Source of the DNA: Escherichia coli
GTDB taxonomy: Bacteria > Pseudomonadota > Gammaproteobacteria > Enterobacterales > Enterobacteriaceae
Assembly: GCF_050920415.1 (NCBI RefSeq)
Contig: NZ_CP169310.1
Reading direction: 5' to 3' (one strand)
DNA: 64,000 bases
Below are positions 3,001-6,000 of this stretch, piece after piece; the first letter of the stretch is position 1, and every line of letters begins with the position of its first letter. A program made the position numbers.

Positions 3001-6000
3001 TGCAGCTCAACGGACCCTTTTGGAAAAAAACGCCGCAACGATCGCTTGCATCAATGGTTTGCCGGGCTGTTTATTACGGCTACTATTATTGCTGGCGGGC
3101 TATGGTACATGGGAATTCTTGATGTTCCGGGATTATTACTCAGATAACGATTTCAGTAACGATATCAGTGTCCTGAAATCAGCACATAACGAGTGACGAC
3201 AGTACCGGTTATACCAGTAATAAGGGGCTTCGGGCTGAAGCCTGAAACAGAGCTGAAACTCGCTGTTAAAAGCCCCCTTCACCGACCATCCCCATGCCAG
3301 ACGTGGTATTGCTGATTCAGCATCCTGCCGCAGTCGCCGTTCAAGAAGGGCAGCCATTTTTACCGGACAGACAAAGGCAATATAAGGCGGCAGCTTTGTA
3401 ACAGGAAAACCATGCCCCTGACAGGACGCATATGTACGGAATCCGTGAACGTTCATCGCGGCCACAAGTGCACGGATGTCCGGGTCAATCCGGTAATAGC
3501 CTGCTGGAAAACTCATTGCGACTTATCCCCGGTGCCGTCCAGCAGTCCCTGAGCCACCTGCCGGCAGTCTCCCGTGGCGGCCACTTTTTCCAGCGCCTGC
3601 CTGACGCGCAGATTTCCCCGGATGATGTCGTGCCCCTGGCTGCAGAACACCACCAGGGCCGGCACGCTGCGGATGCCGTACTGTGAAAACAACGTCGGGT
3701 CGATCTGAACACCATCGGTCGCGCCATCTTTTACCAGAGACAACACGGCTTCAGCGGTAGTCTTCAGGTCATTGTTCACCATGCCCCGCAGTGTGGCCGG
3801 AATACCGTAGTGCCCGGTTTCGCTCAGCATCTGTTTCAGCCCCTCTTCGGGTATGGAAAACGATACAAAATACACGGCCCCCTGTTGTGGTTTGTCTTTC
3901 TGAGCAGCCTGCTGCTTACGGACCAGTTCATCGAGAAACTGGTTATCGGAATGCTGAAGGGGATTCGCCCTGACCTGCTGTTCTGCCCATGCCTGCAGTT
4001 GTGTGTCCGGCTTTTCACGTAACTGCTGACTCAGTGTTTCCTGCTGCTTCAGGAACCGGCGGTTTTCTGGCGTATTCACGTTTTCCGAAGCGTGGGCAGA
4101 AATAAACAGTCCTGCTGTCAGGGAAAAAAGTACAAATATTTTACGGCTCATATCATCTCCCGGCATAGTGATATAATTTAATTACCGGCGCACTTTTCTT
4201 TCAATCTTTCAGACAGAGCATATAACTCATCCATTTCTTCCTGAGTAATGCATTTTCTGCTGACAGTAATCTACACCGTAGCCACGGCGGTATCTCTGTT
4301 CAGAATAATATCATCACCGTAATTTTTTAATGACAGATGGTCTCCCTCTCTCCGGGCCTGGTATATTTTTTTCCGGTGGATACTCAGACAATTCGTTCTC
4401 CTACCTGTCTTTAGATTTATCATTACAATTATATTCAGACATAGTGCTGATGAATTCCCGAAATCTTCTGTCAATAAACTCCAGTCGATTCAGTATATCC
4501 TCTGATTTCCTGACATCTTCAATATCTGTAAGCCGACGGCACTCCAGCAGAGGATAATATGCCCCACCATTTTCAGTCCATTGTCTGACCACATCAAAAG
4601 CACTCACCTTTTCCAGCAGGGAGAAAAATCGCTCCTCACTGATAAAAATTTCTTTTTCTTTATTACTTATCTTTCGTAAAAATGATAAAAAACTCATAAC
4701 ACACCTTGATTTATATTGTACACATGCACACACGGTTATATTTATGAGAACCGCCAGACTCATTTCCTGCGCTTAACAGACATAAACTTATCTGACGAAA
4801 GATACGAGAAAACAACGCAGATTGTTGATTAGCTTCTTTCTCTGTTTATCTTTTTTCTGAGTCTGGCGGCAATTAATTGCCAGTCTTCTCTTTCACTCCG
4901 GCTTACAGCACTTTCTCTTGCGTAAACATGCATAGTGATTTTATTTTTCACTTTCATCCTTCACCTCTTTATTTACAGGAACACACAGTTACGTTTACGC
5001 CACATCAGGTAGCCGAAATTTTTCTTTGTGTTGGGCGGATTTTTTCCCGTCTCCCAGCGCATCACACTGCGCCCGAACGGATGGCACTGCCCGCTGTCCG
5101 GGTACATGTTCACCATCTGGTAACGCCAGCGTTCTTTGGGAAGTATGGGAGACGGATATTCGTTACAGACGGCACTGTCCTTACCGATGGTTTCCATAAT
5201 CATGCCCTGGCGGTGGAGCTTAAATGCCATCCGCTCACTGACCAGCAGGGAGGACTGCAGCGGGCTGGATTCATTGCTCACCCAGCCATTAAACGGATAC
5301 ATACTGCCCTGCGAACCGGCACACCAGAACAGAATATCCAGAGGTTTATTAAAGGCGCTGGCAATCGCATCAGCTGCACAGGCACCCTGCGCTATCGGGT
5401 TGGCAAAAATAACCGCTTCCGGATTGAGAATGGTGGTCAGACTGCTGTCCGTCCATGTGGGATCGATTTCGGAAAGATACGCGATATCCAGGTCACCACC
5501 TTCCAGACAGCCCAGCGATGTGATGATATTCAGCCAGTACGTCAGCGGGTATTTGTACCAGTGCACGTGATAGAACGCCCCGTTCACCTGTTTATCTTCT
5601 TTTCTTGCCGTCCCCTGTGCCGTTTTCCCGAATTCCGGCAGACTGAACCCCAGATTAACCATGCATCCCGGTGAGCGGGTGACATCCGTCAGGGCCATCG
5701 GCTCCCAGTAACCAATAGCCAGCCCGATACGTTTAAAAACAGGGGGAGGCGCCGGGCAGAACTGGATCGGCATTGACGGGTTTGCGGTATCCGGCACCTT
5801 CCCCTGGCTCACTTTTGTGCTGCCCAACGAGAGAGGGAAAATGCAGCTCCAGCAAATATCCGTGATCGGGTTAACAAACCGCCCCTCACAGGCAGCGTCC
5901 GCTGACGCTACGGGAACATGGCCAGTCAGCAGCAAAACCACACACAACCACATACACCGTTTCATTTCCCTCCCTCCCCGACCGGAATAAATTCCACCTT

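What the first reader, a model, noticed from the sequence alone, without database searches (positions are those of the whole stretch)
4167..4972. AT-rich 0.8 kb insert with an orphan ORF between traU and trbC
traU and trbC are adjacent in the canonical gene order, yet here they are separated by about 800 bp of visibly lower GC content carrying a 98-120 aa ORF (4401-4763) of no recognisable family. Together with the trbC-traN insert this suggests the traU-trbC-traN stretch is a permissive site for cargo within the transfer operon.
Basis: seen in the sequence. Interest (0 to 1): 0.5.

Follow-up and report, generated by a model that had tools for sequence, protein, structure and literature searches.

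The report
Decayed accessory genes between traU and trbC
The AT-rich 0.8 kb stretch between traU and trbC is the mutated, partly deleted leftover of a three-gene accessory cassette that many F-like plasmids carry intact at this spot, so it is real but ordinary and probably non-functional.

Summary
On the minus strand, traU (4973-5965) and trbC (3513-4151) are separated by 821 bp of 38% GC, against 54-56% in the flanking genes. The ORF at 4401-4763 is there.

It is not an orphan. It is the first 98 codons of a 172-173 aa gene ("gene C") found at this same site in about 790 F-like plasmids. The window's copy carries TGG>TAG, a +1 A in an A-run, and CAG>TAG.

The best comparators are an E. coli M8 plasmid, where all three genes are intact, and the sister plasmid pOkiPb01676_1. 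The ancestral cassette was a small ORF A (59 aa), a 2-TM protein B (about 100-127 aa, also present in R100 and pSLT), and C. Here A is a 42-aa variant. B was removed by a 297-bp deletion between two GCGTTGT repeats. C is a pseudogene.

F itself has only 8 bp between traU and trbC. The content here is a decaying remnant, not working cargo.

No function could be assigned to A, B or C from Pfam, NCBIfam, PADLOC, PHROGs, PDB or AlphaFold2. Interest is low.

The parts
4973..5965 (-). traU, the upstream flank. A recombination breakpoint relative to the sister plasmid lies near 5072.
   Evidence: PGAP annotation of the 100% identical plasmid pCFSAN004180G. Compared with pOkiPb01676_1 there are 75 differences, mostly at third codon positions, from 6109 to 5072, and none from 5071 to 4820.
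4829..4957 (-). Gene A': a 42-aa ORF and divergent short member of the 59-aa small-ORF family. The C-terminal DWQLIAARLRKKINxERS is conserved.
   Evidence: ORF list. The 3' 75 bp match about 100 plasmids at 87-95%. Aligned to the M8 plasmid 59-aa ORF. A Klebsiella IncFII(K) plasmid has a 58-aa homologue at the same site. The ORF is identical in the sister plasmid.
4868..4881 (.). 14-bp perfect palindrome GGCAATTAATTGCC inside gene A'.
   Evidence: Hairpin reported. It lies within the conserved 75-bp segment. Its function was not tested.
4812..4818 (-). Deletion junction: the single remaining copy of the 7-bp direct repeat GCGTTGT. A 297-bp deletion removed most of gene B.
   Evidence: Sister plasmid L013 has ...AATCTGCGTTGTGTCTGG... 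and, 297 bp further on...GTGAGCGTTGTTTTCTCG.... The window has AATCTGCGTTGTTTTCTCG.
4760..4818 (-). 3' remnant (59 bp, including the TGA stop at 4760-4762) of gene B, the small 2-TM protein family of R100, pSLT and IncFII plasmids.
   Evidence: Alignments A1, A2 and A5. Family alignments A6 and A7.
4178..4697 (-). Pseudogene of gene C, which is 172 aa when intact. Lesions: TGG>TAG at 4401-4403, A6>A7 at 4366-4372, and CAG>TAG at 4271-4273. There are also 3 missense changes relative to the sister allele.
   Evidence: Alignments to pT224A, TO124 p2, the M8 plasmid and pOkiPb01676_1. Difference list. The intact sister allele is WP_047670817.
4401..4697 (-). The 120-aa version starts at 4763, inside the stop region of gene B.
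   Evidence: WP_001364039. This exact product is seen on 215 contigs.
3513..4151 (-). trbC, the downstream flank.
   Evidence: PGAP annotation.

Best explanation
The interval is the decaying remnant of a three-gene accessory cassette, not needed for transfer, that sits between traU and trbC in many F-like plasmids and reads in the tra direction.

The intact form, as in an E. coli M8 plasmid, has three genes. Gene A encodes about 59 aa. Gene B encodes a roughly 100-127 aa inner-membrane protein with two predicted transmembrane helices. Gene C encodes a 172-173 aa soluble protein.

In the window's lineage, gene A is a 42-aa variant. Gene B was first frameshifted, as still seen in the sister plasmid. 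It was then removed by a 297-bp deletion between two GCGTTGT repeats, which looks like slippage or microhomology-mediated deletion. Gene C then accumulated two nonsense mutations and a +1 frameshift in an A-run.

Shown: the homology, the lesions, the deletion junction, and the variability of the site.

Inferred:
- The remnant is still transcribed passively as part of the long tra transcript. It has the same orientation and no terminator on that strand.
- At most it yields a 98-aa fragment without function.
- Cassettes are exchanged between plasmids by homologous recombination in the flanking tra genes, not by transposition.
- B and C act together at the inner membrane in donor cells, because natural in-frame B-C fusions exist.

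The biochemical role of the intact cassette remains unknown. My guess is a dispensable, T4SS-co-expressed accessory function at the membrane. It is lost readily because F-type transfer does not need it.
For: Gene C homologues are found in 793 PLSDB plasmids. In every locus I inspected they lie between traU and trbC.

The window's copy differs from intact copies by TGG>TAG, +1 A and CAG>TAG. The sister plasmids pOkiPb01676_1 and pMFDS1022581_1 are 98.3-98.7% identical. They have an intact 172-aa gene C and 297 bp more DNA, and the deletion ends lie in a 7-bp direct repeat.

The window's gene C differs from the sister's at 6 positions. Three of the changes inactivate the gene, three are missense and none is synonymous. 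Over the same comparison, traU differences fall mostly at third codon positions.

Intact gene C copies give dN/dS of 0.22-0.74, so the intact gene is under some constraint.

Other truncated alleles show independent decay. They include a -1 frameshift in the same A-run (P0047 and P0048, 142 contigs) and other junctions (P0052, P0055, P0058, P0065).

The 259-aa proteins P0012 and P0019 are B-C fusions.

Gene B homologues occur alone at this site in R100 and pSLT. A gene A homologue occurs alone in a Klebsiella plasmid. F has 8 bp at the site.

No terminal inverted repeats, target-site duplication or transposase were found. The terminator scan found no site on the tra strand between 4152 and 4972.
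Against: RefSeq annotates the 98-aa ORF as an ordinary CDS, and it has a reasonable ribosome-binding site. A residual function of the N-terminal fragment is therefore not excluded. No expression data were available. The function of the intact cassette is unknown, so 'non-functional' rests only on gene disruption. The order of events (B frameshift, then deletion, then the C lesions) is inferred from a single sister lineage, and no intermediate alleles were found.
Confidence: 0.87

Rival explanations
1. The 98-aa ORF is a working stand-alone gene. The truncation released a functional N-terminal domain of gene C, or switched the protein to a different activity.
For: It has a plausible Shine-Dalgarno sequence and start codon, and PGAP calls it a CDS. 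The allele sits in an established lineage of roughly 220-240 kb plasmids and is seen on 215 contigs. Truncated products of 96-123 aa recur in other lineages. The low-confidence AlphaFold2 model has a helical N-terminal half followed by strands, which hints at two domains.
Against: The recurrent truncations arise by different lesions at different positions, which is the pattern expected from loss of function. The region downstream of the first stop carries two further inactivating lesions, and the partner gene B is deleted. The lineage's copies are 100% identical, so they say nothing about selection.
Confidence: 0.07
2. The AT-rich stretch is kept as a cis-acting element within the operon, with the ORFs incidental. 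Candidates are an internal promoter for trbC and traN, an H-NS binding or pausing site, or an RNA element.
For: GC is low at 0.38. There is one promoter-like match at 4204-4175 on the tra strand, just upstream of trbC. A conserved 14-bp palindrome lies at 4868-4881.
Against: The scan found one promoter-like site where shuffled sequence gives 3.2 on average, so this is no more than chance. Rfam gave no match on the insert. F and about 40% of sampled plasmids have no spacer at all and transfer well. The conserved segments track protein-coding frames, with dN/dS below 1.
Confidence: 0.04
3. The interval is a mobile element, such as an IS remnant, a MITE or an integron-type cassette, that inserted into the operon.
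For: Its base composition looks foreign. Its presence is patchy across plasmids. An imperfect 17-nt direct repeat lies near both ends, at 4163-4179 and 4930-4946 (88% identity).
Against: There are no terminal inverted repeats, clear target-site duplication, transposase or integrase, either in the window or in the intact M8 cassette. Neighbouring plasmids differ by recombination breakpoints inside traU. One plasmid carries a trbC'-traU' fusion footprint of unequal crossover.
Confidence: 0.02

Closest known systems
IncFII-type traU-trbC cassette (for example pT224A: 102-aa WP_000412447 plus 173-aa WP_015059014; E. coli M8 plasmid: 59 aa + 127 aa + 173 aa)
   Same: It has the same site and orientation. 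Window 4167-4818 is 91-95% identical at the DNA level.
   Different: In the window gene B is deleted except for 59 bp. Gene C carries two stops and a frameshift. Gene A is a 42-aa variant.
Sister plasmids pOkiPb01676_1 and pMFDS1022581_1 (172-aa WP_047670817)
   Same: They are 98.3-98.7% identical across the interval and have the identical 42-aa ORF.
   Different: They keep 297 bp of gene B, already frameshifted, and an intact gene C.
The single ORF between traU and trbC in R100 (WP_000224416, 101 aa) and pSLT (WP_010999945, 102 aa)
   Same: These belong to the same gene B family (34-46% identity, shared KLFPF...FY..P...W...D...LYL pattern) and occupy the same site.
   Different: The window retains only the last 59 bp of this gene.
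Non-essential ORFs interspersed in the F tra operon (trbA, artA, trbE, trbJ, trbF and others). That these are dispensable is from my own knowledge of the F literature and was not checked here.
   Same: These are small genes embedded in the long tra operon and not required for transfer. Their presence varies among F-like plasmids (PMC5102898 reports low conservation of trbA, trbG and artA).
   Different: A, B and C have no sequence similarity to any named tra or trb product. The copy here is defunct.
pEC556_3-type alternative cassette (153-aa P-loop protein plus a 150-aa gene C paralogue)
   Same: It occupies the same site, and its second gene is about 31% identical to gene C.
   Different: Its first gene is a small P-loop NTPase-like protein with a weak AAA_14 match, not a 2-TM protein. 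This cassette is not present in the window.

Membership tests
Gene C family (172-173 aa hypothetical protein of F-like plasmids, WP_015059014 / WP_047670817) | Collinear sequence homology over the whole gene | tested here: met
   Window 4178-4697 aligns end to end with intact genes. It shows 6 differences from the sister allele and 91-95% DNA identity to IncFII copies.
Gene C family (172-173 aa hypothetical protein of F-like plasmids, WP_015059014 / WP_047670817) | Uninterrupted reading frame of about 172 codons | tested here: not met
   There is a TAG at 4401-4403, a +1 A at 4366-4372 and a TAG at 4271-4273. It is a pseudogene of the family, not an intact member.
Gene C family (172-173 aa hypothetical protein of F-like plasmids, WP_015059014 / WP_047670817) | Location between traU and trbC in the tra orientation | tested here: met
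Gene B family (small 2-TM protein between traU and trbC in R100, pSLT and IncFII plasmids) | ORF of about 92-127 aa with the conserved KLFPF...W...LYL core | tested here: not met
   Only the last 59 bp (4760-4818) remain after the 297-bp deletion.
Gene A family (58-59 aa small ORF, MMEKEQ...YRDWQ...) | Conserved C-terminal DWQ(L/Y)I(A/G)A.LR.K segment | tested here: met
   The 42-aa ORF ends in DWQLIAARLRKKINRERS. The underlying DNA segment matches about 100 plasmids.
Gene A family (58-59 aa small ORF, MMEKEQ...YRDWQ...) | Full-length N-terminal part (MMEKEQ.QC...) | tested here: not met
   The N-terminal 24 residues are divergent and about 17 codons shorter. Whether the variant is functional is unknown.
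Transposable element or insertion sequence | Terminal inverted repeats, target-site duplication, and a transposase or integrase | tested here: not met
   The repeat searches of the window interval and of the intact M8 cassette found only short repeats of the size expected by chance. No transposase-like ORF is present.
Named Tra/Trb proteins of the F-type T4SS | Match to a curated Tra/Trb model (NCBIfam or Pfam) | tested here: not met
   Proteins A, B, C and the 98-aa fragment gave no significant hit.
Known anti-phage defence systems (PADLOC) | Match to a PADLOC model | tested here: not met
   One search gave no hits at E<=1.

The most novel reading that the evidence does not exclude
The intact A/B/C cassette could be an uncharacterised conjugation-coupled module: a cytoplasmic protein C working with, and sometimes fused to, the 2-TM protein B, and expressed only when the T4SS is made. 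It might, for example, protect donor cells or mediate competition between plasmids. The slippage-prone A-run in gene C, hit by +1 here and by -1 in another common lineage, could act as an on/off switch. The window's 98-aa fragment might then keep part of the activity.
Probability: 0.08. Interest if true: 0.45.

Novelty: new member of a known kind. Interest (0 to 1): 0.18.

Why it matters
For this window it matters little. The interval is a dead remnant inside an otherwise intact transfer operon, and the exact sequence is already in RefSeq.

The comparison does give three modest points of wider use:

1. The textbook adjacency of traU and trbC is specific to F and similar plasmids. The junction holds at least three uncharacterised gene families (A, B, C) that are co-oriented with the T4SS genes. 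Together they occur in a large share of clinical IncF plasmids.
2. Natural B-C fusions suggest that B and C act together.
3. Gene C is lost again and again, which suggests it is dispensable or costly.

These families are cheap targets for knockout and conjugation assays in plasmids that matter for antibiotic resistance.

Tried and rejected
Function searches for genes A, B, C and the 98-aa fragment all returned nothing usable. This covers NCBIfam, PADLOC, PHROGs and Pfam and a profile search of PDB sequences (best E 0.5).

An exhaustive profile search of 1.84 billion representative proteins found only the two subfamilies and their fragments. One other hit, P0080, is a repetitive artefact.

AlphaFold2 on the 7-sequence alignment gave a mean pLDDT of 46.7. 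I therefore ran no fold search, because it would have been meaningless, and left the second prediction job unused because the family is too shallow.

Rfam gave only one below-threshold miRNA match outside the insert. The promoter and terminator scan found nothing above chance on the tra strand.

Five literature searches found no paper that discusses ORFs between traU and trbC. Of the three papers I opened, 'Five shades of F' (PMC5102898) profiles only named tra genes. A paper on plasmid conjugation in urinary E. coli (PMC9465074) and the pEntH10407 sequence paper (PMC2762410) say nothing about this junction either. Anthony et al. 1999 (PMC94017) is not held.

The 17-nt imperfect direct repeat near both ends of the interval was considered as a possible insertion footprint. 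I rejected it as inconclusive because the F and R100 junctions show no related sequence.

I looked for intermediate alleles carrying only one or two of the three gene C lesions among the cluster members and found none.

Full report
**Observation.** The tra genes in this part of the window run on the minus strand: traC 6974-9601, trbI, traW, traU 4973-5965, trbC 3513-4151 and traN 997-2901. PGAP coordinates come from the 100% identical plasmid pCFSAN004180G. Between the traU stop and the trbC start lie 821 bp. GC is 0.381 for 4167-4972, against 0.543 for traU and 0.556 for trbC. Across the whole 64-kb window, 15% of 806-bp windows are equally AT-rich. The stretch therefore stands out only against the tra genes. 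It is 120 aa from ATG 4763, or 98 aa from ATG 4697, which has an AAGGTG ribosome-binding site. RefSeq annotates the 98-aa form. In F, traU and trbC are 8 bp apart.

**What the ORF is.** The interval from 4167 to 4818 matches 526 PLSDB plasmids at 91-95% identity. In those plasmids two CDSs lie between traU and trbC: a 102-aa protein and a 172-173 aa protein. By tblastn the 173-aa protein ("gene C") is found in 793 plasmids, including a paralogue of about 30% identity. In each of the loci I inspected it lies between traU and trbC. Alignment shows that the window's copy begins at ATG 4697 and is broken three times:
- One extra A in an A6 run, at 4366-4372.
- CAG>TAG at 4271-4273.

The ORF is therefore the 5' part of a pseudogene, not an orphan.

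**The ancestral cassette and the decay series.** An E. coli M8 plasmid carries three intact genes at the site: A (59 aa), B (127 aa, two hydrophobic segments) and C (173 aa).

A search of complete E. coli genomes found the exact window variant in 11 plasmids of roughly 218-225 kb from cattle and food. It also found sister plasmids at 98.3-98.7% identity whose interval is 1102 bp rather than 806 bp. In the sister pOkiPb01676_1 the 42-aa ORF is identical to the window's. Gene B is present but frameshifted by a 1-bp deletion. Gene C is an intact 172 aa.

The window lacks 297 bp relative to the sister. The deletion ends fall in a 7-bp direct repeat, GCGTTGT, of which one copy remains at 4812-4818. 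Only 59 bp of gene B survive (4760-4818).

The window's 42-aa ORF (4829-4957) shares its C-terminal DWQLIAARLRKKINxERS with gene A. Its N-terminal part is divergent and shorter. A 58-aa gene A homologue sits alone at this site in a Klebsiella IncFII(K) plasmid.

**Evidence for relaxed constraint.** The window's gene C differs from the sister's at 6 positions. Two changes are nonsense, one is an insertion, three are missense and none is synonymous. In traU the differences between the same two plasmids fall mostly at third codon positions. Intact gene C copies compared with one another give dN/dS of 0.22-0.74. The intact gene is therefore a real coding sequence under moderate constraint. Other lineages carry independent disruptions. 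One is a -1 frameshift in the same A-run (P0047 and P0048, the latter on 142 contigs). Others have different break points (P0052, P0055, P0058, P0065). The window's exact 98-aa product is on 215 contigs and the intact sister allele is on 110.

**How variable the site is.** I joined the traW-traU and trbC flanks into one query and took a rank-spread sample of matching plasmids. Among the 41 sampled plasmids in which both flanks matched, the gaps were:

| Gap | Plasmids | Type |
|---|---|---|
| about 0 bp | 16 | F type |
| about 328 bp | 14 | R100 type, gene B alone |
| about 930 bp | 4 | B + C |
| 806 bp | 1 | the window's own variant |
| 981, 1160 and 1272 bp | 1 each | other arrangements |
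| too large to join into one match | 3 | |

R100 has a 101-aa gene B homologue and pSLT a 102-aa one. Another cassette type pairs a 153-aa P-loop protein with a 150-aa gene C paralogue. The trbC-traN junction also varies. It is empty in F and pEC556_3. It holds a 123-aa ORF plus an HNH endonuclease gene in IncFII plasmids. In the window it holds a 126-aa ORF plus an antisense ORF.

**How cassettes move.** Neither the window interval nor the intact M8 cassette has terminal inverted repeats, a target-site duplication or a transposase. The window and its sister differ by about 7% in traU down to about position 5072 and are then identical through the 5' part of the insert. This indicates a recombination breakpoint inside traU. 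One plasmid (OZ043947) carries a trbC' fragment fused to a traU' fragment between two cassette types, which is a footprint of unequal crossover. Exchange by homologous recombination in the conserved flanks is the simplest reading. This is an inference.

**Function of the intact genes.** Nothing could be assigned. Pfam, NCBIfam, PADLOC and PHROGs gave no match. A profile search of PDB sequences found nothing significant. An exhaustive profile search of 1.84 billion representative proteins found only the two gene C subfamilies and their fragments. AlphaFold2 gave a mean pLDDT of 46.7, which is unusable. All database names are 'hypothetical protein' or a generic 'conjugative transfer protein'.

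Two structural hints remain. First, gene B has two hydrophobic segments, with basic residues at both termini and an acidic loop between the segments (read directly from the sequences). Second, natural 259-aa proteins fuse B's C-terminus to C (P0012 and P0019). Together these suggest that C is cytoplasmic and works with B at the inner membrane. This is an inference.

**Other checks.** Rfam found nothing on the insert. The scan found one promoter-like site in the insert, at 4204-4175 just upstream of trbC. Shuffled sequence gives 3.2 such sites on average, so this is no more than chance. The terminator scan found no site on the tra strand within the interval. Five literature searches found no paper that discusses ORFs at this junction, and neither did the three papers I opened.

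**Verdict.** The feature is real and correctly located. It is a partly deleted, multiply mutated remnant of an accessory cassette that is common, annotated and uncharacterised at a known-variable position of F-like tra operons. The exact sequence is already in RefSeq. Interest is low for this window. The intact A/B/C families may merit a simple genetic test elsewhere.

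Noticed in passing
window 2914-3516: The trbC-traN gap (GC 0.48) holds an intact 126-aa ORF on the minus strand (3136-3516). It is 87% identical to the 123-aa ORF that precedes an HNH endonuclease gene in IncFII plasmids. It matches no Pfam, NCBIfam or PADLOC family and is present in about 690 plasmids. In place of the HNH gene, the window has a 72-aa ORF annotated on the opposite strand (2929-3147, +). This ORF has CxxC...CxxC motifs and a hydrophobic tail, and its antisense position recalls artA in F.
   Followed up: partly
window 4868-4881: A perfect 14-bp palindrome, GGCAATTAATTGCC, lies inside the 42-aa ORF. It sits within a 75-bp segment conserved in about 100 plasmids. 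It could be a protein-binding site or simply coding sequence.
   Followed up: no
window 4366-4372: The A-run of gene C (A6 when intact, A7 here) carries a -1 frameshift in another widespread lineage (P0047 and P0048, 123 aa, the latter on 142 contigs). It is a recurrent slippage site.
   Followed up: partly
window about 5072 (within traU): Divergence from the sister plasmid pOkiPb01676_1 changes sharply here. It is about 7%, mostly at third codon positions, from 6109 to 5072, then 0% from 5071 to 4820. This indicates a recombination breakpoint in the 3' end of traU.
   Followed up: partly
L007 (NZ_OZ043947.1), locus about 2670-3490: After gene C this plasmid has a 5' fragment of trbC joined to a 3' fragment of traU. 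These are followed by gene A and further AT-rich DNA before the real trbC. This is a footprint of unequal crossover between plasmids carrying different cassettes.
   Followed up: no
L004 (pEC556_3), locus 3022-3965: An alternative cassette occupies the same site. It pairs a 153-aa protein carrying a Walker A motif (GEEDTGKST; weak AAA_14 match and a weak match to an anti-phage NTPase model) with a 150-aa paralogue of gene C.
   Followed up: partly
L015 (Klebsiella pVA126-175), locus 2533-2934: This IncFII(K) plasmid has an extra 133-aa hypothetical ORF between traW and traU. That junction can therefore also hold accessory genes.
   Followed up: no
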